DNA of 64,000 nucleotides from Candidatus Saccharimonadota bacterium (GTDB taxonomy: Bacteria; Patescibacteriota; Saccharimonadia; Saccharimonadales; UBA10212), in NCBI GenBank assembly GCA_022841445.1, contig JALHRM010000001.1, forward strand, positions 195,777-259,776, read 5' to 3'. How positions within the stretch are numbered: the stretch's first letter is position 1; each line of letters begins with the position of its first letter. The notes under the pieces are model-generated. The model saw only the letters and a list, made by a program, of their open reading frames with translations. It was not told the origin of the DNA and made no database searches. Below are positions 36,484 to 53,862 of this stretch, in pieces. A program made the position numbers and the translations under genes.

Positions 36484-36508
36484 AATAAGAATGATACCAG
36501 ATAGTTGG

Positions 36509-37861: not shown

Positions 37862-37902
37862 ATTCTAACAGTCCCCTTATAAGCCTTGCTATACTAAACA
37901 TA

Positions 37903-38907
37903 ATGAAGATTCTAGTCACTGGCGGAGCTGGGTTTATAGGTTCAAACTTCGTCCATTATTTACGCAAAAACTACCCTGATTACCAGATAACCGTTGTTGA
38001 CAAGCTGAATCAGCAGGGCAATATTGAAAATCTTAGGCCAATCATGGAAGAGATAGCTTTCCATGAATTCGATTTGGTCGAAGAATCAAAACTACTGCCG
38101 ATATTTGAAGCTGGCCTGGATTATGTCGTACACTTTGCCGCCGAAACAAATGTAGACCGTTCTATAGAAGATCCCGACAACTTTGTAAGCAGCAATGTAC
38201 TGGCTACCAACATTCTATTGCGATTAAGCCGTGACCACGGCGTAAAGCGTTTCCACCATGTTTCCACCGATGAGGTTTTCGGCAGTCTAGAACTAGGCAC
38301 CGATGATAAATTCAACGAAACTACACCTTACGATCCTCGCAGTCCGTATTCTGCTACCAAGGCAGCCAGTGACCACCTGGTACGTTCGTACTTCCACACC
38401 TATCAGCTCGATGTCACAATCAGCAACTGCTCAAACAACTATGGGCCTTACCAGGTACCTGAAAATATTGTGCCAGTGTTTACTCTTATGGCGCTAAATG
38501 ATAAACCGTTAACCATTTACGGCGACGGCAAAAGTGTCCGTGATTACCTTTTTGTGCTTGATCACTGCCGTGCAATTGACCTCATCCTACATAAAGGCAA
38601 GGCTGGCGAAACATACTGCGTCGGTGGGGGGCAGGAACAAAACGGTATTCAAATAGCCAATTCAGTACTATCTATCACCAGCAAATCAACCGACCTTAAG
38701 AAATTCGTTACCGACCGACCGGGCCATGATCGTCGCTACGCCATCGATTATTCCAAACTTGAAAAAGAACTTGGATACAAACCAAGTGTGACATTTGAAG
38801 AAGGCCTCCGGCAAACTATAGACTGGTATCAGCAAAACGAAGAATGGTGGAAACCATATATGGAGCGTTTTTACGTGCCTCAGTTCATGAAAGAAGACGT
38901 CGAGTAA
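37903..38907 (+). CDS. rfbB: dTDP-glucose 4,6-dehydratase
   Basis: KILVTGGAGFIGSNF, HVSTDEVFG, YSATKAASDHL. Confidence 0.92.
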   Translation: MKILVTGGAGFIGSNFVHYLRKNYPDYQITVVDKLNQQGNIENLRPIMEEIAFHEFDLVEESKLLPIFEAGLDYVVHFAAETNVDRSIEDPDNFVSSNVLATNILLRLSRDHGVKRFHHVSTDEVFGSLELGTDDKFNETTPYDPRSPYSATKAASDHLVRSYFHTYQLDVTISNCSNNYGPYQVPENIVPVFTLMALNDKPLTIYGDGKSVRDYLFVLDHCRAIDLILHKGKAGETYCVGGGQEQNGIQIANSVLSITSKSTDLKKFVTDRPGHDRRYAIDYSKLEKELGYKPSVTFEEGLRQTIDWYQQNEEWWKPYMERFYVPQFMKEDVE

Positions 38908-39464
38908 TGGCACAAGAACTCGCTGTACGCGAGACAGTAATACCAGGTTTTTTTGAAATTGATCTTGTCGTCCATGGTGATTCTCGTGGTTGGTTTAAAG
39001 AAAATTACCAAAAAGAAAAAATGGAAGCCCTCGGTTTACCTGTATTTGAAACTGTCCAAAATAATTTTTCCTTTAATGCCGAAAAAGGCGTGACGAGGGG
39101 GCTCCATGCCGAGCCTTGGGAAAAATTCATCTCGGTCGCTAACGGTAGAGTCTTCGGGGTATGGGTAGATCTGCGTGTCGGATCGACTTTTGGTCAGACA
39201 CTTTCGCTAGAAATTACACCCGAAAAGGCTGTTTTTGTACCGAGGGGTGTAGCCAATGGCTATCAGACGCTTGAAGATAATGTTACCTATACTTATTTAG
39301 TCAATGCTCATTGGTCGCCAGAAGTAAAATATGTCGCCGTAAATTTATTTGATGCCGAGCTTGCTATAGAGTGGCCAATACCAAGAGAACAGGCCATCAT
39401 ATCTGAAAAAGATGAGAGAAATCCACTGCTAAGTGAAGTTAAACCACAGGAATTTAAATTCTAA
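38907..39464 (+). CDS. rfbC: dTDP-4-dehydrorhamnose 3,5-epimerase
   Basis: DSRGWFKENY, RGLHAEPW, VPRGVANGYQTL. ATG 38907 overlaps the rfbB stop (TAATG). The ORF-track start at 38844 is an out-of-context extension. Confidence 0.9.
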   Translation: MAQELAVRETVIPGFFEIDLVVHGDSRGWFKENYQKEKMEALGLPVFETVQNNFSFNAEKGVTRGLHAEPWEKFISVANGRVFGVWVDLRVGSTFGQTLSLEITPEKAVFVPRGVANGYQTLEDNVTYTYLVNAHWSPEVKYVAVNLFDAELAIEWPIPREQAIISEKDERNPLLSEVKPQEFKF

Positions 39465-40318
39465 TGGACGAGTCAGGAATCCTCATAACCGGCTGTAATG
39501 GTCAGCTTGGGCTGGCTTTGCAGCAACGGTACCCCTCTGCCAAAAAAGCCGATTCAGCCGAACTAGATATTACTGATTATGAAGCTTTACGAGCGCTTGA
39601 CTGGACTAGTATCCACACTATCTTAAATGCAGCAGCCTATACCAACGTCGATGGTGCCGAAACTAGAGAGGGACGCATTGCAACTTGGCAGGTTAATGCA
39701 GTAGGTGCTTCGAATCTTGCCCGCATCGCCAATGAACATGATCTTACCCTGCTACACATCTCGACTGATTACGTTTTTGATGGCACAAAAAATCTCCACG
39801 TAGAAAGTGAACAACTTGCACCCCTATCCGTTTATGGCGCCAGCAAGGCAGCGGGCGAAGTCGCCGTAATGACGGCCGAAAAACATTATATACTGCGCTC
39901 CTCATGGGTAATTGGCGATGGTAAGAACTTCGTACGAACTATGCTTGGCATCGGGCAAAAAGGCATCAGCCCGACCGTGGTAGCAGACCAAGTCGGCAGA
40001 CTGACTTTCACTAACGAACTCGTCCGCGCAATAGAACACATATTGGCAAAAAGGGCAGACTGCGGCATCTACAATATAAGTAACGGTGGCGAGCCAGCTA
40101 GCTGGGCTGATATAACACGAGCAATTTTTTCGGAAGCAGGTTTTGATCTGACCGTTACTGATACAACTACGGCCGAATACTTCGCCGACAAGGAAAACGT
40201 CGCTCCGCGCCCACTTAGCAGTACCTTTGACTTGAGCAAAATCGAACAAACGGGCTTTAAGCCACGTGACTGGCGAATCGATCTAAGCGAATATATAAAA
40301 AAGGAGTTGAGTAAATGA
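39464..40318 (+). CDS. rfbD: dTDP-4-dehydrorhamnose reductase
   Basis: [28 protein letters not shown]. Confidence 0.88.
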
Positions 40319-41175
40319 AAGGCATAATTTTAGCAGGTGGTTCCGGCACGCGACTTTACCCCATTACACTGGCAATCAGTAAGCAGCTAATGCCAATTTA
40401 CGATAAGCCGATGATTTACTACCCGCTTAGCACGCTTTTAAGCGCCGGGATACGGGAAATACTTATTATTTCAACCCCGCAAGATTTGCCGCGTTTCGAG
40501 CAACTACTTGGTGATGGATCGCGTATCGGTTGTGCGTTTAGCTATAAGGTACAGGAAGAACCCCGTGGTCTGGCCGATGCCTACATTGTCGGTGCGGAGT
40601 TTATCGGTAGCGACAAAGTGGCCATGATCCTAGGTGACAACGTCTTTTACGGATCAGGTCTGGAAGAAAAGCTTCAGGCATTCTCCGATGTGGACGGCGC
40701 CGTTGGCTTTGCGGCACCCGTCAAAGATCCGCAACGTTACGGAGTGTACGAGTTCGACCAAGACATGAACGTGCTTTCAATCGAAGAAAAACCTGAAAAT
40801 CCAAAAAGCAACTACGCTAACGCCGGCTTGTACTTTTGCGACAACGAGGTAGTAGAGATTGCCAAAAATGTGCAACCAAGCGAGCGCGGAGAAGTTGAAA
40901 TAACGTCAGTTCTTGATGCTTACTTACAAAAAGGCAAACTCAAAGTCAGTCTTTTTGATCGAGGAACTGCTTGGCTGGATACTGGAACATTTGAAAGCAT
41001 GAATCAGGCATCTCAGTTCGTGCAAGTTATCGAAGAAAGACAAGGTCTCAAAATCGGTTGCATCGAAGAAATTGCTTACCGTCAAGGATTTATTGATGCC
41101 GCGCAGCTCCAGGCAATCGCCGAACCCCTCAAAAAATCCGGTTATGGCCAATACCTCCTTAACCTAGTACCCTAA
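40315..41175 (+). CDS. rfbA: Glucose-1-phosphate thymidylyltransferase
   Basis: [36 protein letters not shown]. Confidence 0.93.
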
Positions 41176-41429: not shown

Positions 41430-44129
41430 TTAGTGCCAAGTGAGCGGCACTGCACCCGGGAAACCGAACTGGAACGACCCGTTTGGCGCTCCGCCGCTAT
41501 TGCTATTACGCAGCGACCAGGTGCCGCCAGTACTTACTGATCCCACTGTGTCATCGCCGTCACCATCCCAGTCACCGACAACTGCATAACCAGGTGTGTG
41601 GCCATAGTTGAAGCTGGCATCCGGTGCTCCGCCGAAAGCGTTAACTAAATCCCAGTTATTGGAAGAATCAACTACACCTGGCGTATCATCACCGTCACCA
41701 TCCCAGTCACCCACAATCGGCTTTTTGCCTGCAGATCCGTAACTAAACGCACCTACATCAGGCCCTCCAGATGTATTAGAATTCCTTAGACTCCATGTCA
41801 TGTTCGAACTTACTACGCCTACCGTTTCAATACCGTCGCCGTTCCAGTCACCACACACCGGCTTATGATCCGAACCGCCATAAGAAAAGTTGCGGTCTGC
41901 CGCACCGGTTGTGTAACTCGCCCTCATGTACCACGCCCCGCCGCTGTAAACCACTGGCAATTTTACTCCTGGTTGGTCGGCATCCCAGGCACACATCAGC
42001 AAATGAGCAGGGAACCCGTACCCGAAAGATTGATCGCCAGGGCCGGTAGTCAGGTCATTTTTCAAAAACCAACCCGCGCCATTTGTTAATGCTGGTCTTG
42101 AGGAATTAACAAGCCTGCACAACGAAAATTCTGATGTTTCCGAAGGCACTGAACCGAGCTTCTTTGTAGCCGTTGCTGTGATATATTTTCCACCAGAAAC
42201 CGCAGAACCAGGAGTAAATCCCCAGGCCGTGTTACCAAATTGATCCGTCCCTATATCGGTGGAGCCGAGGTAAGATTGCCCCTCACCGTAATTAAAAGGT
42301 GTCCCGGCATTGCAACCATCGCTTGAAAAGAATTCAAGCCGGAACGAGGTATTGGGCGCACCGTTGAATTGTCCAGCTATTTTTGTCGTTCCACCGCTGG
42401 TTTTGGCAGCATAGACATTGGGGAAGTTTTGCGTACGGTTTGCACCGCCATCACCGTCCCCTGCATCATTAAGATTTGTTGAGCCGTTATTATCCAAATC
42501 AATGCCCAGTCTGCCGTTGAAGGCAATCGAATTGCCAAGAATCGCCAAATCTGTTGCGGATGAGACTGCCACCCCGCTGCCAACATTACCCATGCTGTTA
42601 CCAGCCGTGTTCATCCCGATGTAATTGCCCTCAATACGTACGCCGGTCGTGGCGTTACCGACAATTATCAGACCATTGCTTCCATTACCGGCGATCACAT
42701 TACGATGAGCTGAGGTTGATCCGCCAATTTGCATGTTCGGAGTGTTTAGAATGCCAAAGCCATCTAACACGTTGCCAATCGATCCCGTACCAGCTGCGTT
42801 CGTACCTACGTAATTGCCGATGAATGTGTTGCCGTAACTTTCGGTTCCCGAAATAAACACACCGTTTTGCAAATTACCAGATATAAGGTTACATGCCCCT
42901 GTGCACGCCCCACCGACCGTAACGCCTGTCGTTCCGCCAATTGTGTTACTGTTCGCCCCCACCGCTCCTGGCGAAGCCCCGATACCTATCCCCATTTTCT
43001 GATTTGCTAACGCGGAATTTCCCGAGGCATTTGTACCAATGTAATTGCCCTGCACCACGTTGCCAGTAGCTGCCGCCCCAGTTATAAATAAGCCTGCCCC
43101 TTTATTGCCCGATAGTATATTTCTATCCTCTGGGTCTGTTCCGCCAACGGTATTATTTGGCGTTTCGTTAACTTCTAGTCCAATATCGCCATTGGCAACT
43201 GCAGCTGTACCCGCCACGTTCGTGCCAACATAGTTGCCCTTGAAAGTATTGCCACTCGCACCGCTATGCCATAGCCCTGCGCCATTTGCTATGTTACCCG
43301 ACATAAGGTTACACGCCCCTGTGCACGCCCCACCGACTGTGACACCAGTTGTGCCGCCTATCATATTGCCAGTCATCGTGCCCACGCCCTGAGCGTTATT
43401 GAGCAGAAACCCATCACCCCCATTGGCGATTGCCGACATGCCGGCTGCATTTGTACCGATATAGTTGCCTTGCACTGTATTGTTATTGGTGGTTCCGTTA
43501 TCCTGTGCCGTAATTGCAATGCCGTTACCTGTGTTGCCGGAAACGACGTTGCGATCTGCTGCTGTCGTACCGCCAACTATATTCCCATTAGCAGAAGCCA
43601 GATTAGTTCCTGAAAAAATGCCAATCCCATCACTACCGTTTGCTGCAGCCGCAGTACCAGCTGCATTTGTGCCAATGTAATTGCCAACAATTGTCACATT
43701 GTTAGTATCAACAAATATGCCTTGCGCACTAAAACGGTTGATAATAAGCCCCCTGATCGTACTTCCAGCTCCGTTACCGCTCACATAAAAACCTCGTGCG
43801 TTCGCACCAGCCCCATTACCACTTAATTCAACTATCGGGGCGCTCCCAAACCCTGGCTGTGTAGTCCCATCAATTGTGACCGGATAGATTACTGGAGGTA
43901 AGGCAGATGTAGGGACTATCTGGACAGCACCACTCCCGATACTAAAATCAATAGTGTCACTACCAATGGTAGAGTTTGCGCTTGTAATAGCCTGGCGTAG
44001 TGACCCTGCGCCGCTATCATTGGTGTTTGTGACTGTGTAGGTTGCGGCATTTGCGCTTGCTGAAAAAACCAATACACCCAATAACGCCACAAATATGTTT
44101 ATGGCAAGTAATTTTATTCTACGCATCAT
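41430..44129 (-). CDS. 899-aa secreted right-handed beta-helix protein (CSLREA-type N-terminus) with C-terminal FG-GAP/VCBS-like repeats
   Basis: Signal peptide. YTVTNTNDSGAGSLRQAITSAN. More than 12 repeats of GNYIGTNAAGTxAxANGxDG. Two GGTTGVTVGGACTGACNL inserts. C-terminal GDWNGDGIETVGVV, GDWDGDGDDTPGVV and GDWDGDGDDTVGSV. Confidence 0.8.
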   Translation of the reverse strand: MMRRIKLLAINIFVALLGVLVFSASANAATYTVTNTNDSGAGSLRQAITSANSTIGSDTIDFSIGSGAVQIVPTSALPPVIYPVTIDGTTQPGFGSAPIVELSGNGAGANARGFYVSGNGAGSTIRGLIINRFSAQGIFVDTNNVTIVGNYIGTNAAGTAAAANGSDGIGIFSGTNLASANGNIVGGTTAADRNVVSGNTGNGIAITAQDNGTTNNNTVQGNYIGTNAAGMSAIANGGDGFLLNNAQGVGTMTGNMIGGTTGVTVGGACTGACNLMSGNIANGAGLWHSGASGNTFKGNYVGTNVAGTAAVANGDIGLEVNETPNNTVGGTDPEDRNILSGNKGAGLFITGAAATGNVVQGNYIGTNASGNSALANQKMGIGIGASPGAVGANSNTIGGTTGVTVGGACTGACNLISGNLQNGVFISGTESYGNTFIGNYVGTNAAGTGSIGNVLDGFGILNTPNMQIGGSTSAHRNVIAGNGSNGLIIVGNATTGVRIEGNYIGMNTAGNSMGNVGSGVAVSSATDLAILGNSIAFNGRLGIDLDNNGSTNLNDAGDGDGGANRTQNFPNVYAAKTSGGTTKIAGQFNGAPNTSFRLEFFSSDGCNAGTPFNYGEGQSYLGSTDIGTDQFGNTAWGFTPGSAVSGGKYITATATKKLGSVPSETSEFSLCRLVNSSRPALTNGAGWFLKNDLTTGPGDQSFGYGFPAHLLMCAWDADQPGVKLPVVYSGGAWYMRASYTTGAADRNFSYGGSDHKPVCGDWNGDGIETVGVVSSNMTWSLRNSNTSGGPDVGAFSYGSAGKKPIVGDWDGDGDDTPGVVDSSNNWDLVNAFGGAPDASFNYGHTPGYAVVGDWDGDGDDTVGSVSTGGTWSLRNSNSGGAPNGSFQFGFPGAVPLTWH

Positions 44130-44197: not shown

Positions 44198-46951
44198 TTA
44201 GTTTATGTCGGCGCCGTTCGGTAGCAAAGACAACAGCAAATCACTAACACTATAAAATGGAGCATAGGTATTCGTGTACGTCTGTGTGGAACGTATCCAG
44301 CGCTTTTGGCCAGCATCCACAGCATAAACCGTTGGCCCACTACCTTTTATAGTTGCGGATATTGATGCCCCTGAGGGTACATAAGCCCAAAATGAATCAC
44401 TCACAGTCGATATATTAGAACCTGTTGTCCAGCTGCTTTGCACCGTTCCGTTAATAAAAGCCTTCTTCGCCCCAGAATCCAGCACTGATTCTCCCCCGCT
44501 GGATTTTCTGATTAGATTCTTTGCTGTCGCCACCGTTGAGCCAGTTATATCAGACGGTGTAATTTCCATGATTTTGCCACCCGATTGATATCCATAGTTA
44601 AAAACTTGCGCTGTACTAGTTAGATGATACAGGTTTGACCCAGCATTATCTGCTACAAATATACGTTGATCGGCTGCATCGGTAGAACGCACAAAAATAG
44701 TAAGCGGCGTGCTCGGTGCCACCCTTTGCATAAAAGCCTGGGATGGCTGGGTCGGTGATGTTGTCAAGTTCCATATACCTGCCATATCGGTATTAAACGT
44801 CAGATGTGACTTACCATTTCGAACCAAGTAATACGCACTGCCAATCTTGACTCTGTCTGTCAGTGAGCTGGCGTTACTGAAACGACTAATAGTAGAGGCA
44901 TCAACAGCGTCAGGCGATGTAAGGTTCCAATGGGAAGCAACGGCACCACTAACTGAGTACCTATTACCGCTATCTATAACATAGTTTGTGCCACCACTAC
45001 TTAAGTAACTTCCCACGAAACCGCCATGAGTAAATTGGTTGAGTACATAGTCAGAAACTGATGTAATAGTAGAACCTCCGGCTAGGTATGTTAGGTCTTG
45101 GGGGCCTCTGATGTGCCTAATACTGCCGTCATCCATGAGATAGACCGGTGAGCTATTAAAGCCTTTCAATAGACCGCTAGCGGTCTCCCCAGCTGGCAGG
45201 GCTGCCATCAAGGCCGAACTCGCTGAATAGACATTGGATGTTCTATACCCACTATCTATTGCCGAAGGTACTGTTATCCTACGACCATCCATAAGATATA
45301 GTTGACCCGAAACATCGGCTAGGTATGTGTTTATCACGGCGCCGACTGTCAACAGGTTAAGAGTACCTTGGTTAACCACATTTACATCAGGATTAGCACC
45401 GATCCCCCAGGCTCGGAGTAATTCCTGAGAACTTATGGCATGCCTTGAAGTATCAACGAGATAAACGGTTGATGAACCCACACCTCTTATAAAGTGACTC
45501 GCCGGAGATGAGGTTACCAGCCGATTCATTGTAAGGTCAGAAACTGTCATTGGTGATCCTGGATACAGTGGTGCTATAGCGGCCGATAAATATAACTTTT
45601 GAGACGCTGTTACATTGTACTGGTCGGCGCTTGATGCTCGTTTAGCCTTATTTGTAGTAATAGAAGACCCTGTGTTGTTTAATTTATTAGAATAATCTGT
45701 GGAGAGGTCTATAACTTTTGGACTGTCTCCCTCCCAAGCAGCAAGAATATTGCCGTTACTGTATTGCCTGATTGAGTCACCGTCCATCATATACACTGCG
45801 GTACTACCATTTTTCCTAAGCGCATACGATAATGCACCTTGATTTACCGGAACTCTAGACAAATCAACACTTACATCAATGGTGGCGGCTGGGTTTAGCC
45901 CCCATACGGTCATCATATTTGGATCTAAAATCTTGTAGGAGTTACCATTATCAACAAAATATATGTCATGAGAACCAGAAGCTCGCAATAGCCGATCAAC
46001 CGGCTGCGATGCTTGAGTTATCGAACCAAGATACAGACCCGTCATTTGGGCAAGCGGCAGGTCGTCAAAACCCCATGCTCGAGCTATTTCTTCGTTTGGC
46101 ACTAAGCGCCGAATTCCCTTATATATAACCCACTGCCTAGGATCTCCATTGTCGTTATAGGACGTTGCCAGTACAAATCCCTCACCCGTAGTTGGACCAA
46201 ACCAATCTGTAAAATTACGCCAGAAGTTACGATTACCATAAGCTGCACAGCTATATCCTGGATCTCCCTGTGGCACCGAACTGTAAAGATAATTCATAAC
46301 TGAGGGATTGGGTTGATAGGGTGTATAGGCGTACAAGGCCATCGTTGCACGATTCTCGATAAAAACTGTAGGCGCTGCGCAACCAGGCAAGTAAGGTATG
46401 TTATTGTTTCCCAGCAAAAACGGCGTGTACTGGCTTGGGTCGTTATTCATGATTTTACGGAACATCCGGGCTGCATAGTATAGCTGATTAGTAAAACCGT
46501 ACGTCCCTTGGCAAGCAGGAGGAGGTGGCCCATCAGGAACACAGAATCCTGTCGCATACGTGTATTCGTATGATCCAGGCGATGTATCAGACACTAGTCC
46601 CTGCTCTTTTTGTAATAGAACAATCATTGCCTGAGGGTTTATCGAAAACGCCTGTGACTGCTCCCATATTATTTGGGCGGCACTTTTGCCATTCTCGGTA
46701 AAGTCTTTCAAACATGTGTGACCCGCCTGACAATTTTGTACTTTGGAGTTTAAAAACGCCTGTATTGTTTGCGGCGACATACTATTTTGATTAGTAAAAG
46801 TAGAGTCGTCTATAATCCGACCCGGTTTAAAGTCCACTGCGTTTGCACTAAAAGTATGCCGTGCGGGCAATAGAAGGAACGCGACAAACGCAATTGCAAG
46901 AGCAAACATGGATGCGAGAATAATGTAGCTTCTTTTTCTGTTAATTAACAT
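44198..46951 (-). CDS. 917-aa membrane-anchored/secreted protein: conserved Cys-rich hydrolase-like head + at least 9 degenerate beta-repeats
   Basis: Head: IQAFLNS...INPQAMIVLLQKEQGLV...ALYAYTPYQPN...YGNRNFW. Body: repeats of the type (V/I)Y(L/M/F)(V/M)DxGxx(R/H)xIxxxxxxxxWG. Confidence 0.75.
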   Translation of the reverse strand: MLINRKRSYIILASMFALAIAFVAFLLLPARHTFSANAVDFKPGRIIDDSTFTNQNSMSPQTIQAFLNSKVQNCQAGHTCLKDFTENGKSAAQIIWEQSQAFSINPQAMIVLLQKEQGLVSDTSPGSYEYTYATGFCVPDGPPPPACQGTYGFTNQLYYAARMFRKIMNNDPSQYTPFLLGNNNIPYLPGCAAPTVFIENRATMALYAYTPYQPNPSVMNYLYSSVPQGDPGYSCAAYGNRNFWRNFTDWFGPTTGEGFVLATSYNDNGDPRQWVIYKGIRRLVPNEEIARAWGFDDLPLAQMTGLYLGSITQASQPVDRLLRASGSHDIYFVDNGNSYKILDPNMMTVWGLNPAATIDVSVDLSRVPVNQGALSYALRKNGSTAVYMMDGDSIRQYSNGNILAAWEGDSPKVIDLSTDYSNKLNNTGSSITTNKAKRASSADQYNVTASQKLYLSAAIAPLYPGSPMTVSDLTMNRLVTSSPASHFIRGVGSSTVYLVDTSRHAISSQELLRAWGIGANPDVNVVNQGTLNLLTVGAVINTYLADVSGQLYLMDGRRITVPSAIDSGYRTSNVYSASSALMAALPAGETASGLLKGFNSSPVYLMDDGSIRHIRGPQDLTYLAGGSTITSVSDYVLNQFTHGGFVGSYLSSGGTNYVIDSGNRYSVSGAVASHWNLTSPDAVDASTISRFSNASSLTDRVKIGSAYYLVRNGKSHLTFNTDMAGIWNLTTSPTQPSQAFMQRVAPSTPLTIFVRSTDAADQRIFVADNAGSNLYHLTSTAQVFNYGYQSGGKIMEITPSDITGSTVATAKNLIRKSSGGESVLDSGAKKAFINGTVQSSWTTGSNISTVSDSFWAYVPSGASISATIKGSGPTVYAVDAGQKRWIRSTQTYTNTYAPFYSVSDLLLSLLPNGADIN

Positions 46952-47411
46952 TAATCGTCTTACTACTTTCAGTGTTTGTGTCCAATACGCTTAACTTTAT
47001 ACTCCACTCGCCTTTTGCTGGTATATCCAATTTTGAAATGTTAAATCCTTCACAAGCATAGTATGAATTGGTAAGTATGATAGGTGCCTGTCTTTCTATA
47101 GTCTGTTGGCCTACTTTAGTCAGTTCGAGCCTACATTGTCCCTGACTTACCCCTTGAATTATCGTTCTGATGTACACAAATTGCTCATCCTGCGATAAGT
47201 TGGTTATGCTAATAATGCCTAAATTTTGAGTTGGTGCTTCAGTATTCGGGGCAGGAAGCGGGCTGCCATCATCACTTGCAGTTCTTTGCTCGGCTGGATT
47301 ACTTACTCCAGCGGGTGTAGGACTCTGGGCAGTATCCTTCATGAAGAAGAGAAAAGCCAAAACGACAATTAAGATTACACCGATTGATGCTATTAAGTAT
47401 TTACGATTCAT
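46941..47411 (-). CDS. Membrane-anchored small beta-domain protein (hypothetical)
   Basis: N-terminal helix LIASIGVILIVVLAFLFF, Pro/Ala linker, and a domain of about 90 aa with two Cys. Overlaps the downstream gene by 11 nt. Confidence 0.5.
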   Translation of the reverse strand: MNRKYLIASIGVILIVVLAFLFFMKDTAQSPTPAGVSNPAEQRTASDDGSPLPAPNTEAPTQNLGIISITNLSQDEQFVYIRTIIQGVSQGQCRLELTKVGQQTIERQAPIILTNSYYACEGFNISKLDIPAKGEWSIKLSVLDTNTESSKTINVN

Positions 47412-47552
47412 TTTTGTTTTTAAATTATACCTTCACATTAATTTAATATTGCAAAACTGTAAAGCTTTTTCTGCTACACAACACTAGTTAATAACAGTGT
47501 AACGCTATAACTTGACAATAAATACAAATACGTTGCAGAACTTACTGGTACA

Positions 47553-48095
47553 CTAGGGGTCTACTTTTTTAGCAACTAGCGTATAGTGGACAGGCATTAG
47601 CCACCTATCATCTGCTTCCAGGCCATTAAGTTCGACTATTTCAAAATTTTTAAACAGCGCCCTCAGCCCATGCTCCGTAAACCTCCAGCAATCAGGCAAA
47701 GGGCCATGTATGCGAAAATTAAACGGGGCAGAAACAAATACCAATCCGCCAGGCTTCAAAATTCTACCTATTTCTAAAACTGCATCAAAGGGTTGAAGCG
47801 TATGCTCTAGAACTTCTGTGCAAACTACGAAATCAAACCGTCCGTCAGGAATCGTCTTCTTGTTGTTTGCACAAATGTCGGCGATATAGCTTGCTGACGA
47901 TTCAGAATCAATGTCGAGAGTTTCGATTATGCTTCTAGTGAAGTAGGGCTCGGCACCTTCGTGTACCTGTGGAGCTATGTCTAGCAAGATCGCTCCATCC
48001 CTATCATATTTTTCAGCTGACTTTTTCATAAAACCAGTGACGTTTGCCCGAATAAGCTTGAAATGTTCTTCATCAGTTCTTGAGATAATACCCAT
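47553..48095 (-). CDS. Class I SAM-dependent methyltransferase
   Basis: FDFVVCTEVLEHT and LKPGGLVFVSAP (Methyltransf_11-like). Motif I is atypical (ILLDIAPQ). Confidence 0.65.
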   Translation of the reverse strand: MGIISRTDEEHFKLIRANVTGFMKKSAEKYDRDGAILLDIAPQVHEGAEPYFTRSIIETLDIDSESSASYIADICANNKKTIPDGRFDFVVCTEVLEHTLQPFDAVLEIGRILKPGGLVFVSAPFNFRIHGPLPDCWRFTEHGLRALFKNFEIVELNGLEADDRWLMPVHYTLVAKKVDP

Positions 48096-48096
48096 T

Positions 48097-49374
48097 TTAA
48101 AATTTCTCCATCAAGGCCTCTATCATATGTGCGTCAAAGACGGGTATTCCCAACTTCTTGCTAACTTTTCGCCGTTCCTCGAATGAATCGTCAACAAATA
48201 TGGCGTCCTGTTCGGCAATATAGTCACACTTTTCCTTATCATCTGATATCACAATTATTTCATCGAACATATTTTGCAGTCGATGAGATGCAAGTGTGCT
48301 ATGGATGTCTTGTTTATGTTTTGATAATAAATGTACTTTTTTATTTTGATTTATACACTGATAAACGAATGATACCACTGTCGGATTTACTTTGTTTTCT
48401 AATATTAATAAATCATCTAGGTCTATGTATACATGCTGATACTGTATGTTATGCGAATAACGGGCTTGGAGGGCTCTATCTGTGCGTATGTGATAGCTAT
48501 TTTTTGTAACTTCAACATCGTAATCCATGGCATCAAAAAGACCAAGTAGCGGCAAGTTAACTCCTTTACTTCGGGATAAGCCCATAGTACCGGCAATACG
48601 AGAAGCGATTTCTAGTAGTGCAAGCTCTCCGTCAGCATTTTCCTTTAACTGAAAAAACCACGGTCCTCGAAAAGCTAAATTTTCATTAATTATTTTTGAG
48701 ATACCGTAAATTCTTGGGTTATCTATAAACTCACTGTTTACACTGATTCCGCCGGATGTTCTGATGCGCTCTCTTCCTTCTGAGTAGAGCAACTTACCGT
48801 TTCTATCAGTAAAGCAATCAACCGTATACTCCCTTCCGGGTAAGTACTCCATAATTAGCTGATCAGAATACTTTTTCATGTAGAAAGCCGCCTCAGTCTC
48901 ATCTTCTACCAAGTAAGCCCCTCTTGATCCTTGGCCTTTATCAGGTTTTACGAAAGCTGGGTAACTAGCCTCTGATATTCCGCCATACAACTTCGGAGTT
49001 GCTACTTTTTGTCGAAGAGTTTCATACGTCCTTCTTTTGGAACGAGCGATTTCACAAGTATCATACGGTGATGTTACAACGCAGCACCTTAGCCTTTGCT
49101 GATTAGCTTCCCTAGCGAGCACCAAAACAACGTCGTCGTGTGCGGGGTAAATATAGTCAATACTGTATTCTTCGATAATATCATTTAACCTACTTATGAA
49201 ACTTTGATCGTACACATATGGGATGTTCCCGATATAGTTTTTATAGGCAAATCTTCCGTGATCATCAATCGATGAACCGCCATAAATATTAAAGTGTGTT
49301 GAGTACTGTAGTGAACGGCCAATTTCAAGACCAACTTCTGTGCCGCACGGAAATACTAAAACGTTCTTTTTCAT
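48097..49374 (-). CDS. ATP-grasp ligase domain fused to a C-terminal HAD-like domain
   Basis: ATP-grasp strings PAFVKPDKGQGSRGAYLV and LIMEYLPGREYTVDCF. The last 100 aa or so are HAD-like (IFVDDSFEERRKV). Confidence 0.7.
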   Translation of the reverse strand: MKKNVLVFPCGTEVGLEIGRSLQYSTHFNIYGGSSIDDHGRFAYKNYIGNIPYVYDQSFISRLNDIIEEYSIDYIYPAHDDVVLVLAREANQQRLRCCVVTSPYDTCEIARSKRRTYETLRQKVATPKLYGGISEASYPAFVKPDKGQGSRGAYLVEDETEAAFYMKKYSDQLIMEYLPGREYTVDCFTDRNGKLLYSEGRERIRTSGGISVNSEFIDNPRIYGISKIINENLAFRGPWFFQLKENADGELALLEIASRIAGTMGLSRSKGVNLPLLGLFDAMDYDVEVTKNSYHIRTDRALQARYSHNIQYQHVYIDLDDLLILENKVNPTVVSFVYQCINQNKKVHLLSKHKQDIHSTLASHRLQNMFDEIIVISDDKEKCDYIAEQDAIFVDDSFEERRKVSKKLGIPVFDAHMIEALMEKF

Positions 49375-50444
49375 TTATTTAGAAGCTTACAAATTTTTAT
49401 TACTGTTTGCTCCTCAAGTCCTGGGTATAGAGGAAGACAAAGTATTCGCCGTGTTATGTCTTCGGATATAGGACACTTCTGAGCATCATTTATATACGAT
49501 AAAGTGTTGAGCGATGGGTAGAAGTATCTCCTCGGGAATATATTTTCTTTTGCCATTCTGTCCAAAACGGCCATAAGCTCGTCTTCACTTTGAAATAATA
49601 GGGGATAGTACGAATAATTGTAATCTGTATCAGAACCAATAGCCGGTCTGGCAAAGCCATTGGGCAACATTTGATCATAAAGTTCGAATATTCTTTTCCT
49701 TTCGCTAATAAAGTCACTCACACGCGAGATGTTACACAGTCCCATCGCCGCATGAAATTCAGATACTTTAGCATTGATACCTAGCATTTTATGATCATCG
49801 AGCTGGTGGCCGAACCTTTTCATAAGCTCGACACGATCACTAACTCGTTTATCATTAACGACTAAGCAGCCGCCCTCTATGGTATGAAAAACTTTGGTTG
49901 CATGAAAACTACATGTTGATATATCGCCATAATCTAACAGTGACCGACCCTTATATAGCACCCCAAATGCATGCGCAGCATCGTATATAACCGGTATTTT
50001 GTACTTTTTTGATAATGTATCGATTACTTCTATATCACAAGGTCGACCAAACACATGAACCGCCATTATGGCTTTTGTTTTTTTTGTAATAGCGGCCTCG
50101 ATTTTACTAGCGTCGATATTAAACGTGTCTGGTTCAATATCAACAAAAACTGGCTTTAGTTTTTCCCAAAGTATTGATGATGTAGTAGCAACATAAGAAA
50201 AAGGCGTGGTAATCACCTCGCCTTCTTCAATTTGCAAAGCCTTAAGTGCAAGCTGCAGTGCAACGGTACCATTGGCTACATAATGGAGATTTTTAACTCC
50301 TAGGTAGGTACAAAGTTCCCTTTCAAGCTCTATTAGCAGTGGCCCTTGATTCGTGACCTGGCCTGTTTGCCATACCTTGGCAAGGTACCCCTGGTATTCT
50401 TCCAGTGGAGGCAGATAAGTTTTTGTTACGTTTATTTTGCTCAT
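49371..50444 (-). CDS. DegT/DnrJ/EryC1/StrS-family PLP-dependent sugar aminotransferase
   Basis: NGTVALQLAL, DAAHAFG, CSFHATKVFHTIEGG (PLP lysine). Confidence 0.88.
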   Translation of the reverse strand: MSKINVTKTYLPPLEEYQGYLAKVWQTGQVTNQGPLLIELERELCTYLGVKNLHYVANGTVALQLALKALQIEEGEVITTPFSYVATTSSILWEKLKPVFVDIEPDTFNIDASKIEAAITKKTKAIMAVHVFGRPCDIEVIDTLSKKYKIPVIYDAAHAFGVLYKGRSLLDYGDISTCSFHATKVFHTIEGGCLVVNDKRVSDRVELMKRFGHQLDDHKMLGINAKVSEFHAAMGLCNISRVSDFISERKRIFELYDQMLPNGFARPAIGSDTDYNYSYYPLLFQSEDELMAVLDRMAKENIFPRRYFYPSLNTLSYINDAQKCPISEDITRRILCLPLYPGLEEQTVIKICKLLNK

Positions 50445-50559
50445 TTAAATTACTCCCGGATCGGATTCTCAAAACATACGACTCACTATATTCTACAGGC
50501 GTATAGACAAATGGAACAGCCGTCACGGTAAGCCATGTTAGTATTAGCCCCTAAAGGGT

Positions 50560-51831
50560 ATGATAGATGTAATGTCCGATGCTAAACGAATCGTAGTTTT
50601 CTTCATCCCCCCTGAAAAAATTATTAACGGGGGGGTGCTTTCTATTTTTTCAATATGTAAAACAAGCAGAGAGTTTTTCGATATACACGGTGCAGATGTC
50701 TACCTCTCAGTTTATCCAGGCAAAAAAAGCTACAAAAAAAATGATCTTTTTAAAAACGATGAGGTTATTCTCGAATTTGATGAAATAGTCAAAAAAGGCA
50801 CTCCTGAGATGCTGCAGCTACATGTACCAGAGTATGCGTCACACGATGTACTTGTCTCACTGCAAAAATATAAAAACTATCTTGGAAGAATTAAAGACTT
50901 AAGTGTTAACATACTTAATCAAAATATTCTTTTAATGCAACCAAATAATGAAGTGGCTAAGTGGTTTAGTATTACCAATAATGTCACCCAAACAACCGCT
51001 CACAGCAAATATGCTACTCAAGAGCTTAGTGATAAGTACTACTTGCCCACTCATCACTTATCAACCTTTGTTGATCATATCCAGTATGAATACTTGAATT
51101 TTGAAGAAAAGCGCGACTTAATAGTTTTTTCACCTGACGAAACGTCTTTGCGCGAAGAAATTATATCGGCACTGAAAACGGCGTTGCCGGAATTTGAGTT
51201 TGTGACGATTCAAGATATGACATACGAAAAATACAAGCAGACGATGAGCTTAGCAAAATTTGCAGTGACTTTTGGTGAAGGTTTTGACGGGTACTACGTA
51301 GAGTCTTTCTTCTCGGGAGGCATAACTTTTGCGGTATACAATGAAGATTTTTTTCCTGACATTGATTTTTCGACATATCGCAATACCTACAAAAGCTACG
51401 AGGAAATGCTAGTGAAACTACCCCTCGATATTAAAAAATACACCGACCCCAAATTATACAAAGAGGTCAATAGTGAAAATCTTAAAAAAATAAATAGCTT
51501 ATACAGCTTTTCAGCTTATCGTACTAATCTAAGAAATTTTTACCTCAAGAAATATAGATATACCCCTAAAGCAGGTGCGGGCAAAGATCTTGTTTCTCGT
51601 ATTCTAAAAGAGACTGAATCACTACTAGATGCTAAACAGCAGCTCCTTGAAGAAAAAGAGGCAGCAATCCAAGCTCAGAGCAGAATGATTGAAGAAAAAG
51701 AGGCAGCAATCCAAGCTCAGAGCAGAATGATTGAAGAAAAAGAGGCAGCAATCCAAGCATTATTGAATTCGCGTAGCTGGAAGGTTACTAAGCCACTAAG
51801 AAAAATCTCGAAAAACTTAAAAAAACACTAA
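50560..51831 (+). CDS. Hypothetical glycan-locus protein with C-terminal tandem-repeat coiled coil and SRSWKVTKPLRK tail
   Basis: No catalytic motif recognised in the first 350 aa. The C-terminus reads EEKEAAIQAQSRMI x2.6 followed by LLNSRSWKVTKPLRKISKNLKKH. Confidence 0.6.
   Translation: MIDVMSDAKRIVVFFIPPEKIINGGVLSIFSICKTSREFFDIHGADVYLSVYPGKKSYKKNDLFKNDEVILEFDEIVKKGTPEMLQLHVPEYASHDVLVSLQKYKNYLGRIKDLSVNILNQNILLMQPNNEVAKWFSITNNVTQTTAHSKYATQELSDKYYLPTHHLSTFVDHIQYEYLNFEEKRDLIVFSPDETSLREEIISALKTALPEFEFVTIQDMTYEKYKQTMSLAKFAVTFGEGFDGYYVESFFSGGITFAVYNEDFFPDIDFSTYRNTYKSYEEMLVKLPLDIKKYTDPKLYKEVNSENLKKINSLYSFSAYRTNLRNFYLKKYRYTPKAGAGKDLVSRILKETESLLDAKQQLLEEKEAAIQAQSRMIEEKEAAIQAQSRMIEEKEAAIQALLNSRSWKVTKPLRKISKNLKKH
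51649..51758 (+). repeat. Perfect 42-bp tandem repeat, 2.6 copies, in frame (14-aa double heptad)
   Basis: GAAGAAAAAGAGGCAGCAATCCAAGCTCAGAGCAGAATGATT at 51649-51690 and 51691-51732. Partial third copy at 51733-51758. Confidence 0.95.
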
Positions 51832-53045
51832 GCCTTTGACCATTTGCCCTGCAAATAAAAGTCTCCGTCCTTGTAGAGAGACTTATCAACTATGGTTACA
51901 GACGGCATTTTTGTATCATAATTTTTATCAATAACGTCTATGATTTCAGGAACATAGCCCGGTGTGTACACGCCCACACCAACGCCATACTCACCTTTAG
52001 TAAGCTGTCCTGGGTCAATTTCACATCTGAGAAGATGAGTGCCTTTCGTTGGTTTATAGCCTGCGCCAAACTCATTTGTTGAGTTTATTCCAGCCATATA
52101 TGCACCGTCCGCTTTAAGAAAAAAGAAGTTTATCTGAACTTCCGTAGGCTTACGAACCTCTATTTCAATTTCCGCGGTAATTTTATCATCTATCGAATAG
52201 CGTTGGGATGGCCTATCTCCCGACAATAGTCTAAAGTTCGTTATTTTTATGGCCGGATCTTTTGGTCTTTCTAGGGTAGTAACATCTTTTGTAGTAGCGT
52301 CTGGAGAATTAGCAAGCTCGTATCTTAACGCAATCTCGCGTGGTTTACCCATAGCGATAACTTTGGAGTCCTGTATCATGAGCGCCCTGTCGCAAAATTC
52401 CTGTACTACGCCCATATCGTGTGTAACCAGTATTACGGTCTTGTCACTATTTTTTATCTGCCTAAACACTTCAAAACATTTACGCTGAAAACTCGAGTCA
52501 CCTACGGCAAGCACCTCGTCAATCAGCATTATGTCGTTATGCGCCTGAATGGCAATTGCGAAAGCAAGACGAACCTGCATTCCTGATGAATAATTTTTTA
52601 GTTTTTGATCCATGAACTTTTCGAGTTCTGCAAAACCAACAATTTCGTCGTATTTTTCTTCAGTTTCTTTGCGCGTGAGTCCAAGTATGGCGCCATTCAA
52701 AAAAACATTCTCACGACCCGTAAGTTCCGCATTAAATCCAATGCCCAGTTCTATAAAAGGAGTAAGTGTACCATTCACCTGCACCTTACCACTAGTCGGG
52801 TAGTAGATTTTACCTATTGTTTTTAGTAGTGTGCTTTTACCGCTACCATTGCGACCAACAATTCCAAAAAACTCACCTTTTTTAACACTAAAATTGATGT
52901 TGTTAAGCACATGAAATGTTTCATAGGTTTGCCTGCTCCCAAAATTTATAAGTCGACTTTTTAAGGAGTTTTTTCGATCATGGGGCAGCCGAAAAGTTTT
53001 GTGTAAATTTTCTACCACCAAAGCGAATTCTTCGTCACTAGACAC
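51828..53045 (-). CDS. Polysaccharide/teichoic-acid export ABC transporter ATP-binding protein with C-terminal carbohydrate-binding-type extension (Wzt/TagH-like)
   Basis: GRNGSGKSTLLK, YSSGMQVRLAFA, LIDEVLAVGD, plus a beta-rich C-terminal domain of about 150 aa. Confidence 0.85.
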   Translation of the reverse strand: MSSDEEFALVVENLHKTFRLPHDRKNSLKSRLINFGSRQTYETFHVLNNINFSVKKGEFFGIVGRNGSGKSTLLKTIGKIYYPTSGKVQVNGTLTPFIELGIGFNAELTGRENVFLNGAILGLTRKETEEKYDEIVGFAELEKFMDQKLKNYSSGMQVRLAFAIAIQAHNDIMLIDEVLAVGDSSFQRKCFEVFRQIKNSDKTVILVTHDMGVVQEFCDRALMIQDSKVIAMGKPREIALRYELANSPDATTKDVTTLERPKDPAIKITNFRLLSGDRPSQRYSIDDKITAEIEIEVRKPTEVQINFFFLKADGAYMAGINSTNEFGAGYKPTKGTHLLRCEIDPGQLTKGEYGVGVGVYTPGYVPEIIDVIDKNYDTKMPSVTIVDKSLYKDGDFYLQGKWSKA

Positions 53046-53861: not shown

Positions 53862-53862
53862 T

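What the first reader, a model, noticed from the sequence alone, without database searches (positions are those of the whole stretch)
44198..47411. 917-aa secreted protein with a conserved uncharacterised Cys-rich head and a long array of WG-type beta repeats, co-transcribed with a small anchor protein
The head of about 230 aa (IQAFLNS ... CQAGHTC ... INPQAMIVLLQKEQGLV ... ALYAYTPYQPN ... CAAYGNRNFW) matches a pattern I recall from uncharacterised secreted proteins of Gram-positive bacteria. The LLQKEQ and YTPY strings suggest, but do not prove, a cell-wall glycan hydrolase-like fold. It is followed by at least nine degenerate repeats of about 55-65 aa, such as IYFVDNGNSYKILDPNMMTVWG, VYLVDTSRHAISSQELLRAWG and VYLMDDGSIRHIRGPQDL, like a propeller or wall-binding array. 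For a putative epibiont, a secreted wall-binding hydrolase could act on the host envelope. The upstream 156-aa membrane protein overlaps it by 11 nt and may be a partner or an immunity factor.
Basis: inference. Interest (0 to 1): 0.55.

Follow-up and report, generated by a model that had tools for sequence, protein, structure and literature searches.

The report
Unclassified wall hydrolase with membrane partner
This gene pair most likely encodes a secreted cell-wall-cutting enzyme of a large, so far unnamed lysozyme-like family, carried on a long wall-binding arm built from the same repeat as the mycobacterial secretion protein EccB, together with a small membrane-tethered partner; it is a new variant of a familiar kind of enzyme, not a new kind of system.

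Summary
A 917-aa ORF (44198-46951, -) and a 156-aa ORF (46941-47411, -) overlap by 11 nt. The large protein has a signal-like N-terminus, a ~225-aa head with six conserved Cys, and 12 (not 9) repeats of ~55 aa.

The head matches no Pfam, NCBIfam or PDB sequence. A confident AF2 model (pLDDT 89.6) hits almost only lysozyme-superfamily peptidoglycan glycosidases (GH73, g-type lysozyme, lytic transglycosylases, Tse3), but weakly (E >= 0.03, TM 0.3-0.4). A Lys-Glu dyad at a helix end is invariant in every homologue examined.

The repeats are EccB-type alpha/beta modules (Foldseek E 2e-7), not propeller blades.

Domain swaps give the strongest evidence. The same head is fused elsewhere to CWB2, ChW, DUF5648 or NBR1-Ig arrays. 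The same repeats follow a true GH25 muramidase in Leifsonia.

The small TM protein is directly upstream in 58/59 Saccharibacteria loci. The pair also occurs in free-living Actinomycetota, and nearly always inside surface-polysaccharide loci.

Best reading: a modular autolysin-like wall hydrolase with a membrane-tethered partner. A host-attack role is possible but not needed. Enzyme activity, substrate and partner role are inferred, not shown.

The parts
46841..46951 (-). N-terminal export signal of the 917-aa protein (aa 1-37): MLINRKR, a 20-residue hydrophobic core, then SANA|VD. Either a cleavable Sec signal peptide or a signal anchor.
   Evidence: Sequence and hydropathy: maximum KD19 2.9 at aa 10, and no other hydrophobic segment. 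AF2 predicts helix 2-27. M1 and A35 are near-invariant in 87 homologues. Cleavage is not tested.
46166..46840 (-). Head domain (aa ~38-262): an unclassified lysozyme-like putative glycan hydrolase module. Features: invariant K115-E116 at the C-terminal end of helix 106-117, invariant T203/L206/Y207/Y209/T210/P211, G239-N240/F243, and six conserved Cys.
   Evidence: No Pfam, NCBIfam or PDB sequence hit. AF2 pLDDT 89.6. Foldseek: 20 of the top 24 PDB hits are GH73, GH23, lytic transglycosylase or Tse3 enzymes, with E >= 0.08. The viral library gives the same picture. KE is invariant in 87/87 and 83/83 sequences. The family has 5100 cluster representatives.
44201..46159 (-). Array of 12 EccB-type repeat modules (aa ~265-917, period ~55 aa; each has 4 strands and 2 helices). 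Putative cell-wall or wall-glycopolymer binding arm.
   Evidence: Repeat HMM. AF2 full-length pLDDT 92.3. The Foldseek top 11 are all EccB1/3/5, E 2.4e-7 to 3.4e-4. PF05108 hits fall on the repeats of homologues. The repeat profile's best PDB hit is EccB1, E 0.039. The same repeats follow a GH25 domain in L059.
46941..47411 (-). 156-aa partner protein: N-terminal TM helix (aa 5-24; nt 47340-47399), low-complexity linker, and a C-terminal ~90-aa domain (nt 46944-47225) with invariant G91, C93 and C120. Its stop overlaps the start of the 917-aa gene by 11 nt.
   Evidence: Homologous ORF in 59/59 Saccharibacteria loci (58 directly upstream) and 13/20 actinobacterial loci. The pair overlaps or is <= 19 nt apart in 59/59 loci. 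No Pfam, NCBIfam or PDB match.
47424..47454 (-). Candidate promoter of the gene pair: TTGCAA (47454-47449), a 19-nt spacer, TATAAT (47429-47424), 12 nt before the ATG. This would give a very short leader.
   Evidence: Read from the sequence. The consensus scan missed it because of the 19-nt spacer. Low confidence; inference only.

Best explanation
The pair encodes a modular, exported cell-wall glycan hydrolase of the autolysin type and its membrane-tethered partner.

Proposed mechanism:
- The 917-aa protein is exported by its N-terminal signal.
- Its ~225-aa head is a very divergent member of the lysozyme superfamily, closest in fold to GH73 glucosaminidases and GH23 lysozymes/transglycosylases. 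It cleaves a beta-1,4-HexNAc glycan, most probably peptidoglycan, with Glu116 as the general acid.
- The 12 C-terminal EccB-type modules form an elongated arm that holds the enzyme on the wall, bound either to peptidoglycan or to the wall glycopolymer made by the surrounding genes.
- The 156-aa protein is translationally coupled and anchored in the membrane by one helix. Its small disulfide-bonded domain docks onto the enzyme and positions or gates it near the membrane.
- The module serves the organism's own envelope: wall remodelling coupled to surface-polysaccharide assembly or cell separation.

Shown here: the architecture, the fold resemblances, residue invariance, domain swaps, partner conservation and genomic context.

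Inferred: catalysis, the substrate, the binding target and the partner's role.
For: (1) Fold. The AF2 head model has pLDDT 89.6. 20 of the top 24 PDB Foldseek hits are peptidoglycan glycosidases: AtlE, LytB, Atl, SagB, g-type lysozymes, MltC/E/F, SltB and Tse3. The viral library likewise returns SLT, glucosaminidase and tail-lysin proteins.

(2) Catalytic residue. K115-E116 is invariant in 87/87 and 83/83 homologues from two phyla. It sits at the C-terminal end of a helix, the canonical place of the lysozyme-type general acid. The only local hhalign segment against FlgJ puts E116 on the GH73 general-acid Glu (PMC4752226).

(3) Head domain swaps. The head is fused to CWB2 x3, ChW x6, DUF5648 x3, NBR1-type Ig arrays or EccB-type repeats in different lineages.

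(4) Repeat domain swap. The EccB-type array follows a bona fide GH25 muramidase domain (PF01183, E 1e-42) in Leifsonia.

(5) Repeat identity. The repeats are EccB-type: Foldseek E 2.4e-7, PF05108 hits on homologues, and the profile's best PDB hit. EccB1 repeats were proposed to bind wall material (PMC4769845).

(6) Partner. Conserved and tightly coupled.

(7) Context. 47/49 loci with both flanks carry polysaccharide genes. Wzm/Wzt is present in 12/16 actinobacterial and 10/33 Saccharibacteria loci.

(8) Six conserved Cys in the head and two in the partner fit extracytoplasmic proteins.
Against: - No sequence-level link to any glycoside hydrolase family: Pfam, NCBIfam and PDB give nothing.
- Foldseek E-values for the head never drop below 0.03 and TM-scores are 0.3-0.4.
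- The hhalign segment on the catalytic motif is not significant (E 0.69), and a second GH73-like motif (YATDP vs LYxYTPY) was not recovered.
- No second catalytic carboxylate is established.
- The wall-binding role of EccB-type repeats has no experimental basis anywhere (PMC4769845), and PlyCB did not appear among my fold hits.
- The context statistic used tblastn with generic GT and ABC queries and no random-window control.
- The partner is directly upstream in only 6/20 actinobacterial loci, so it is not strictly obligatory.
Confidence: 0.6

Rival explanations
1. Host-directed weapon with self-immunity. The Saccharibacteria enzyme is used to bind and locally open the wall of the actinobacterial host at the contact site. 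The variable C-terminal arrays match host wall glycopolymers. The membrane-tethered small protein protects the producer's own wall as an inhibitor or immunity factor.
For: - The pair is present in every Saccharibacteria locus examined, and cultivated members of that phylum are epibionts of Actinobacteria (PMC10633639).
- Head and repeats are shared with the host phylum's own enzymes at 40-44% identity.
- The C-terminal module is highly variable, as in phage lysins.
- Host rhamnose-rich wall polysaccharide affects TM7x binding (PMC11623550).
- Adjacent small-gene pairing resembles effector-immunity pairs such as Tse3-Tsi3, which appear among the fold hits.
Against: - The same two-gene module occurs in free-living Microbacteriaceae, Cellulomonas and Demequina.
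- In both phyla it is embedded in the organism's own polysaccharide biosynthesis loci.
- Among the window ORFs scanned with Pfam, none belongs to a specialised secretion system.
- The actinobacterial copies form their own clade rather than being mixed with the epibiont copies.
- The partner has no similarity to known lysozyme inhibitors.
Confidence: 0.15
2. The head acts on the surface glycopolymer made by the neighbouring genes rather than on peptidoglycan. It would trim, release or recycle that polymer, with the repeats binding the same polymer.
For: Near-universal placement inside polysaccharide loci with Wzm/Wzt exporters, glycosyltransferases and nucleotide-sugar genes. From general knowledge, lysozyme-fold enzymes also include chitinases and chitosanases.
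Against: - The head, including its invariant residues, is conserved across two phyla, while the neighbouring sugar genes differ from locus to locus (rml genes in only a minority). That points to a conserved substrate such as peptidoglycan.
- All closest folds are peptidoglycan enzymes.
- The repeats are interchangeable with general wall-binding modules and are attached to a GH25 muramidase.
Confidence: 0.12
3. Non-catalytic surface protein. The head is a glycan-binding pseudo-enzyme and the whole protein is a structural surface or adhesin component.
For: - No detectable sequence similarity to any active glycosidase family.
- Multi-head proteins exist in which some copies have lost the Glu (LMQTKQ in two of the three heads of P0120).
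- EccB, the source of the repeat fold, is a structural component (PMC4769845).
Against: The Lys-Glu dyad and the Tyr/Thr/Pro motif are invariant in all single-head members from two phyla, which argues for selection on chemistry rather than on fold alone. In P0120 one of the three heads keeps the dyad, as expected for an enzyme with degenerate accessory copies.
Confidence: 0.08

Closest known systems
GH73 N-acetylglucosaminidases (S. aureus AtlE/Atl/SagB, S. pneumoniae LytB, FlgJ; Pfam PF01832)
   Same: Best structural neighbours of the head. Both have a conserved Glu at the end of a helix preceded by a hydrophobic helix (INPQAMIVLLQKEQGL vs VPHHLILAQAALESGW). Both are exported and modular, with C-terminal or N-terminal wall-binding repeats. 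SagB also works with a membrane-protein partner (entry 6u0o).
   Different: No sequence match to PF01832 in any of 28 members at E <= 10. hhalign is not significant. The head is larger (~225 aa), has three probable disulfides, and has its own invariant motifs (LYxYTP, GNxNF, WFG). The GH73 YATDP motif was not recovered.
GH23 goose-type lysozymes and lytic transglycosylases (SLT domain; MltC/E/F, SltB; T6SS muramidase Tse3)
   Same: Recurrent fold neighbours. The single-invariant-Glu chemistry would fit a one-carboxylate mechanism.
   Different: Only 1 of 28 members gives a weak SLT_4 hit (E 0.039). TM-scores are 0.2-0.4. The ES / GLMQ / AYNxG motifs are absent.
EccB, core component of mycobacterial type VII secretion systems (PF05108; PDB 4kk7, 3x3m, 5cyu, 7nps, 6sgy)
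   Same: The repeat unit has the same fold and composition: a 4-stranded sheet plus 2 helices of ~55 aa. Evidence: Foldseek E 2.4e-7, PF05108 hits on the repeats of homologues, and EccB1 as the best PDB sequence hit of the repeat profile. Both have an N-terminal membrane or signal segment and an extracytoplasmic location.
   Different: EccB has 4 repeats arranged 2+2 around a central beta-sheet core and no enzymatic head (PMC4769845). This protein has 12 tandem repeats behind a lysozyme-like head. No T7SS genes were found among the window ORFs scanned with Pfam. The query itself does not reach PF05108.
Modular Gram-positive autolysins and phage endolysins (catalytic domain plus CWB2, ChW, LysM, SH3b or choline-binding arrays; e.g. 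B. subtilis LytC/LytD, PlyC)
   Same: Same logic: an exported catalytic module plus an interchangeable repeat array. In this family the head is found with CWB2, ChW, DUF5648, NBR1-Ig or EccB-type arrays. PlyCB, to which EccB repeats were weakly likened (PMC4769845), binds a polyrhamnose wall polysaccharide (bioRxiv 10.1101/2021.03.19.436156). The window locus encodes rmlABCD.
   Different: The catalytic module belongs to no curated family. A translationally coupled single-pass membrane partner is nearly universal. PlyCB itself was not among my fold hits. There is no phage context.

Membership tests
GH73 (Pfam PF01832 Glucosaminidase) | Sequence match to the family model above its gathering score | tested here: not met
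   No PF01832 hit for the query at E <= 1, nor for any of 28 head sequences at E <= 10. The head profile finds no PDB sequence at E <= 10.
GH73 (Pfam PF01832 Glucosaminidase) | Lysozyme-like alpha/beta fold superposable on solved GH73 domains | tested here: inconclusive
   AtlE 4pi7 is the top PDB hit but with E 0.084, probability 0.89 and TM 0.32/0.37. LytB, Atl, SagB and Acp also appear. The hits are consistent but individually weak.
GH73 (Pfam PF01832 Glucosaminidase) | General-acid Glu at the end of the helix in the (A)LE(S/T)GWG motif | tested here: inconclusive
   E116 is invariant and lies at the end of helix 106-117. The only hhalign local segment aligns it with the FlgJ general-acid Glu, but at E 0.69.
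GH73 (Pfam PF01832 Glucosaminidase) | C-terminal YATD(P) motif | tested here: not met
   The visual resemblance of LYAYTPY at a similar spacing (91 vs ~95 residues after the Glu) was not recovered by hhalign on the C-terminal halves.
GH73 (Pfam PF01832 Glucosaminidase) | Endo-beta-N-acetylglucosaminidase activity on peptidoglycan | not testable with these tools
   Requires enzyme assays and muropeptide analysis.
GH23 / SLT lytic transglycosylases and g-type lysozymes | Match to SLT-type models and the ES...GLMQ...AYNxG motifs | tested here: not met
   Only 1 of 28 members gives SLT_4 at E 0.039. The motifs are absent from the consensus. Fold hits have E 0.28 and above.
EccB (T7SS core component, PF05108) | Repeat modules of EccB fold (4-stranded sheet plus 2 helices) | tested here: met
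   Foldseek top 11 are all EccB1/3/5, E 2.4e-7 to 3.4e-4. The DSSP pattern per unit fits. PF05108 hits fall on the repeats of homologues, two of them above the 27-bit cut-off (30.1 and 35.9 bits).
EccB (T7SS core component, PF05108) | Overall architecture: TM helix, central beta-sheet core flanked by 2+2 repeats, no enzymatic domain | tested here: not met
   The protein has 12 tandem repeats after a 225-aa lysozyme-like head. The query has no PF05108 hit at E <= 1.
EccB (T7SS core component, PF05108) | Encoded with other T7SS genes (EccC, EccD, MycP, WXG100 substrates) | tested here: not met
   35 window ORFs were scanned with Pfam. They are polysaccharide, housekeeping or unknown genes, with no T7SS family. 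Not every ORF of the window was scanned.
Modular exported cell-wall hydrolases (autolysin/endolysin architecture) | Export signal plus catalytic module plus interchangeable wall-binding repeat array | tested here: met
   Signal-like N-terminus. The head is combined with CWB2, ChW, DUF5648, NBR1-Ig or EccB-type arrays. The EccB-type array is combined with GH25.
Modular exported cell-wall hydrolases (autolysin/endolysin architecture) | Demonstrated wall-degrading activity | not testable with these tools
   No experimental data on any family member were found in the literature searched.

The most novel reading that the evidence does not exclude
In Saccharibacteria the pair is a host-interface module. 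A lysozyme-like enzyme shared with the host phylum opens the actinobacterial host wall at the attachment site. Its swappable C-terminal array (EccB-type, ChW, CWB2-like, NBR1-Ig, DUF5648) reads the host's wall glycopolymer and so contributes to host range. The membrane-tethered partner is the epibiont's self-immunity protein. As a by-product, this would give the first functional handle on what EccB repeats bind in type VII secretion systems.
Probability: 0.15. Interest if true: 0.8.

Novelty: new variant of a known kind. Interest (0 to 1): 0.5.

Why it matters
- **A large unnamed family.** The head has about 5,100 representatives at 50% clustering and is present in every Saccharibacteria locus examined, as well as in Microbacteriaceae and their relatives. 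It has no Pfam or NCBIfam model and no characterised member. If active, it would probably define a new glycoside-hydrolase family of the lysozyme superfamily.
- **A lead on EccB.** EccB-type repeats occur as a long C-terminal array behind wall-hydrolase domains (this head, and GH25). This is independent comparative support for the untested idea that the EccB repeats of type VII secretion systems bind cell-wall material.
- **A testable partner.** The near-obligatory membrane-tethered partner suggests a regulated or positioned autolysin system in ultrasmall epibiotic bacteria, whose cell-wall biology is almost unknown. The actinobacterial homologues are in cultivable, tractable organisms, so the predictions can be tested directly.

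Tried and rejected
- **Direct family assignment.** Pfam, NCBIfam and PDB sequence searches with the protein, the head profile and the partner profile returned nothing meaningful.
- **Profile-profile link to GH73.** hhalign of the head profile against E. coli FlgJ alone, and against a three-sequence FlgJ alignment, returned only the catalytic-motif segment and was not significant.
- **Second GH73 motif.** The YATDP vs LYxYTPY resemblance was not recovered and is kept only as a visual lead.
- **Beta-propeller reading of the repeats.** Rejected. Each unit is beta-beta-beta-alpha-beta-alpha, and the fold hits are EccB.
- **T7SS component reading.** Rejected. There is no EccB core architecture, and no T7SS genes among the ORFs scanned.
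- **Holin-endolysin or prophage cassette.** Considered because a single-TM protein precedes a lysin-like gene. Rejected because the enzyme has its own export signal and the neighbours are chromosomal polysaccharide genes in two phyla.
- **Partner as a known lysozyme inhibitor (MliC/PliG/Ivy type).** No sequence support.
- **First repeat count across loci.** It gave a median of 0. The cause was that many family members carry other C-terminal modules. This was resolved.
- **Literature.** Searches for the family, for EccB in Saccharibacteria, and for the LQKEQ motif found nothing relevant.
- **Rfam.** No RNA family was found in the window.


Full report
**Observation.**
The window carries a 917-aa ORF at 44198..46951 (-) and a 156-aa ORF at 46941..47411 (-). 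They overlap by 11 nt. There is no terminator-like site in or around the pair. A possible TTGCAA-19-TATAAT promoter lies 12 nt upstream of the small gene's ATG.

The large protein begins with MLINRKR followed by a 20-residue hydrophobic core and SANA|VD. It has no other hydrophobic segment. All six of its Cys lie in the first 235 residues. The family alignment shows matching conserved Cys columns.

An iterated HMM finds 12 repeat units of about 55 aa between residues 269 and 914, most with independent E-values of 1e-8 to 1e-17. The count is 12 rather than 'at least nine'.

**No curated family.**
Pfam, NCBIfam and phmmer/hmmsearch against all PDB sequences return nothing for the protein or for a 28-sequence head profile.

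The family is nevertheless large. The word-indexed search found 3,170 proteins at E <= 1e-3, and the named ones are Candidatus Saccharibacteria. An exhaustive search of 1.84 billion cluster representatives with the head profile found 5,100 at E <= 1e-3 and 2,877 at E <= 1e-30. The head almost always starts at residue 25-40.

**The head.**
AlphaFold2 with the family alignment gives a confident model (pLDDT 89.6, pTM 0.83). Foldseek against the PDB gives no hit below E = 0.08, and TM-scores are 0.3-0.4.

The hit list is remarkably uniform, however. 20 of the first 24 entries are peptidoglycan glycosidases of the lysozyme superfamily:
- GH73 enzymes: AtlE, LytB, Atl and SagB.
- Goose-type lysozymes.
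- The lytic transglycosylases MltC, MltF and SltB.
- The T6SS muramidase Tse3.

The viral structure library gives the same picture, with SLT proteins, glucosaminidases and tail lysins. The full-length model repeats it.

Lys115-Glu116 (LLQKEQ) is invariant in 87/87 close homologues and in 83/83 sequences from reference genomes of two phyla. It lies at the C-terminal end of helix 106-117, which is the canonical position of the lysozyme-type general acid.

hhalign against FlgJ returns only one local segment. That segment places E116 on the GH73 general-acid Glu (StFlgJ Glu184; PMC4752226). The alignment is not significant, at E 0.69. A second GH73-like motif that I saw by eye was not recovered.

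I therefore regard the lysozyme-like fold as probable and membership of GH73 or GH23 as not established.

**The repeats.**
The full-length model is confident (pLDDT 92.3). Each unit reads beta-beta-beta-alpha-beta-alpha. Three lines of evidence tie the unit to EccB:
- The 11 best PDB matches are all EccB1, EccB3 or EccB5 of mycobacterial type VII secretion systems (E 2.4e-7 to 3.4e-4, probability 0.85-1.0).
- Several homologues hit Pfam PF05108 on single repeat units. The hits map to that profile's own repeat modules, and two exceed the gathering score.
- The repeat profile's best PDB sequence hit is EccB1, aligned to R1 and R4 (E 0.039).

The EccB1 repeats are described as a four-stranded sheet plus two helices. 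They are weakly similar to the wall-binding phage protein PlyCB and were proposed, without data, to bind peptidoglycan (PMC4769845). PlyCB itself binds a polyrhamnose wall polysaccharide (bioRxiv 10.1101/2021.03.19.436156). PlyCB was not among my fold hits.

The repeats are not propeller blades. The protein is not an EccB, because it lacks the central core and the 2+2 arrangement. No T7SS gene was found among the 35 window ORFs scanned.

**Domain swaps: the strongest functional evidence.**
A scan of species-representative genomes with the head profile returned 80 loci. Only about 29 of the 83 head proteins carry EccB-type repeats. The others carry different arrays:
- NBR1-type Ig arrays (L020, L015, L039).
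- Six ChW repeats (L050, Candidatus Nanosyncoccus).
- Three DUF5648 repeats (L016).
- Three CWB2 cell-wall-binding domains, in two tandem genes of a Leifsonia (L070).

Some proteins consist of three or four tandem heads. In P0120 only one of the three copies keeps the Lys-Glu dyad.

Conversely, in Leifsonia sp. EB34 the gene next to the head gene encodes a bona fide GH25 muramidase domain (PF01183, E 1e-42) followed by the same EccB-type repeats.

So the head occupies the slot of a catalytic module, and the repeat array occupies the slot of a wall-binding module. This is the standard logic of Gram-positive autolysins and endolysins.

**Distribution.**
About a quarter of the 80 best genomic hits are cultivated or metagenomic Actinomycetota: Agromyces, Leifsonia, Curtobacterium, Microbacterium, Mycetocola, Planctomonas, Cellulomonas and Demequina. 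Their heads are 39-44% identical to the query head. Their ~800-aa proteins have the same order of signal, head and repeats.

In a neighbour-joining tree of the head, the actinobacterial copies form essentially one clade. Three Saccharibacteria-labelled sequences are nested inside it. This tree is rough (127 columns, no support values).

The window's own copy groups with Saccharibacteria. I did not establish the organism independently.

**The partner.**
In 59/59 Saccharibacteria loci with upstream sequence there is a homologue of the 156-aa protein, and in 58 it is directly upstream on the same strand. In Actinomycetota it is present in 13/20 loci and directly upstream in 6.

The two genes overlap in 31 loci (by 4 nt in 17 of these). 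In the rest they are separated by at most 19 nt.

The family shares one N-terminal TM helix, a variable low-complexity linker, and a ~90-aa domain with invariant G91, C93 and C120. It has no Pfam, NCBIfam or PDB match.

Tight coupling and co-conservation argue for a physical partnership. Whether the partner anchors, activates or inhibits the enzyme could not be tested here.

**Context.**
The window pair sits inside a roughly 30-kb surface-glycan locus containing:
- Wzy_C and a priming transferase.
- rmlABCD and GDP-mannose dehydratase.
- DegT, an ATP-grasp protein and a methyltransferase.
- The Wzm/Wzt exporter.
- Several glycosyltransferases.

dnaA and yidC lie nearby.

A 43%-identical homologue lies among Wzt_C, WsaF_C, GT2, GtrA and epimerase genes. 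The Leifsonia poae copy lies among an epimerase, a GT2, an ABC-2 permease and a UDP-glucose dehydrogenase.

Of 49 loci with at least 4 kb on both sides, 47 have tblastn hits to polysaccharide genes of the window. Wzm/Wzt is present in 12/16 actinobacterial and 10/33 Saccharibacteria loci. The queries were partly generic (ABC ATPase, GT2/GT4) and no random-window control was run, so the exact enrichment is uncertain. The direction is clear.

**Interpretation.**
The best-supported reading is an exported, modular wall glycan hydrolase with three features: a previously unclassified lysozyme-like catalytic head, an EccB-type wall-binding arm, and a membrane-tethered partner. It is functionally linked to the organism's own envelope and glycopolymer assembly (confidence about 0.6).

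The conserved head, set against variable neighbouring sugar genes, favours peptidoglycan over the glycopolymer as substrate.

A host-directed role in Saccharibacteria remains possible (about 0.15). It would be the most interesting outcome, but the presence of the same module in free-living Actinomycetota makes it unnecessary.

A non-catalytic role is unlikely, given the invariant dyad.

**Novelty.**
No paper in the searchable library describes the family. It is a new variant of a known kind of system, not a new kind.

Three things would interest specialists:
- The size of the unnamed catalytic family.
- The near-universal partner.
- The use of EccB-type repeats as a lysin arm, which bears on the unresolved function of EccB.

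Noticed in passing
window 41430-44129 (-): The 899-aa gene immediately downstream has a signal peptide, only weak right-handed beta-helix/NosD-like hits (E 0.014 and 0.069), and C-terminal GDW(N/D)GDG repeats that look FG-GAP/VCBS-like by eye. It has no curated family. A homologue was found in only 1 of 82 related loci, so it is not part of the conserved module.
   Followed up: partly
L059:2672-5212 (-) (Leifsonia sp. EB34): A GH25 muramidase domain (PF01183, E 1e-42) is followed by at least five EccB-type repeats. It is encoded divergently next to the head-bearing gene. This shows that the repeat array is a portable module of wall hydrolases.
   Followed up: yes
L070:3524-5833 and 5845-7953 (+) (Leifsonia sp. 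NPDC056665): Two tandem paralogues carry the head fused to three CWB2 cell-wall-binding domains each.
   Followed up: partly
P0120 (815 aa); P0126-P0128 (824-1116 aa): These proteins are made of three or four tandem head domains without a repeat array. In P0120 only the middle copy keeps LLQKEQ; the other two read LMQTKQ. This may be an enzyme with degenerate accessory copies.
   Followed up: partly
L025, L026, L041: Saccharibacteria-labelled head sequences fall inside the otherwise actinobacterial clade of the head tree. This could be horizontal transfer between epibiont and host phylum, or mis-binned contigs. The tree is a rough NJ tree without support values.
   Followed up: no
window 13710-18977 (+): A 1755-aa ORF with a CBM60-like carbohydrate-binding hit (E 5e-13) and a cupredoxin-like hit. 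It is probably a giant surface protein.
   Followed up: no
window 30396-41175 and 47553-59174: A large surface-glycan locus: Wzy_C, priming sugar transferase, GT4, epimerases, mannose-1-P guanylyltransferase, phosphomannomutase, rmlBCDA, a methyltransferase, an ATP-grasp (Ter-type) protein, DegT aminotransferase, Wzt/Wzm, a 703-aa GT2-GT4 fusion, and GDP-mannose dehydratase plus reductase. A 423-aa ORF on the opposite strand (50560-51831) has no family.
   Followed up: partly
window 59636-62952: yidC (59636-60640, -) and dnaA (61561-62952, +) indicate that the window lies next to the chromosomal replication origin. Cumulative GC skew falls steadily across the window.
   Followed up: no
window 2180-4366 (-) and 4493-5659 (+): A fused trehalose-6-phosphate synthase/phosphatase (GT20 + Trehalose_PPase, 728 aa) and a CvpA (Colicin_V) + trypsin-like protease fusion (388 aa).
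   Followed up: no
window 19059-25965 (-): Four of the consecutive ORFs here (780, 376, 370 and 352 aa) have no Pfam match at E <= 1e-3. The 345-aa ORF at 23761-24798 in the same run was not scanned.
   Followed up: no
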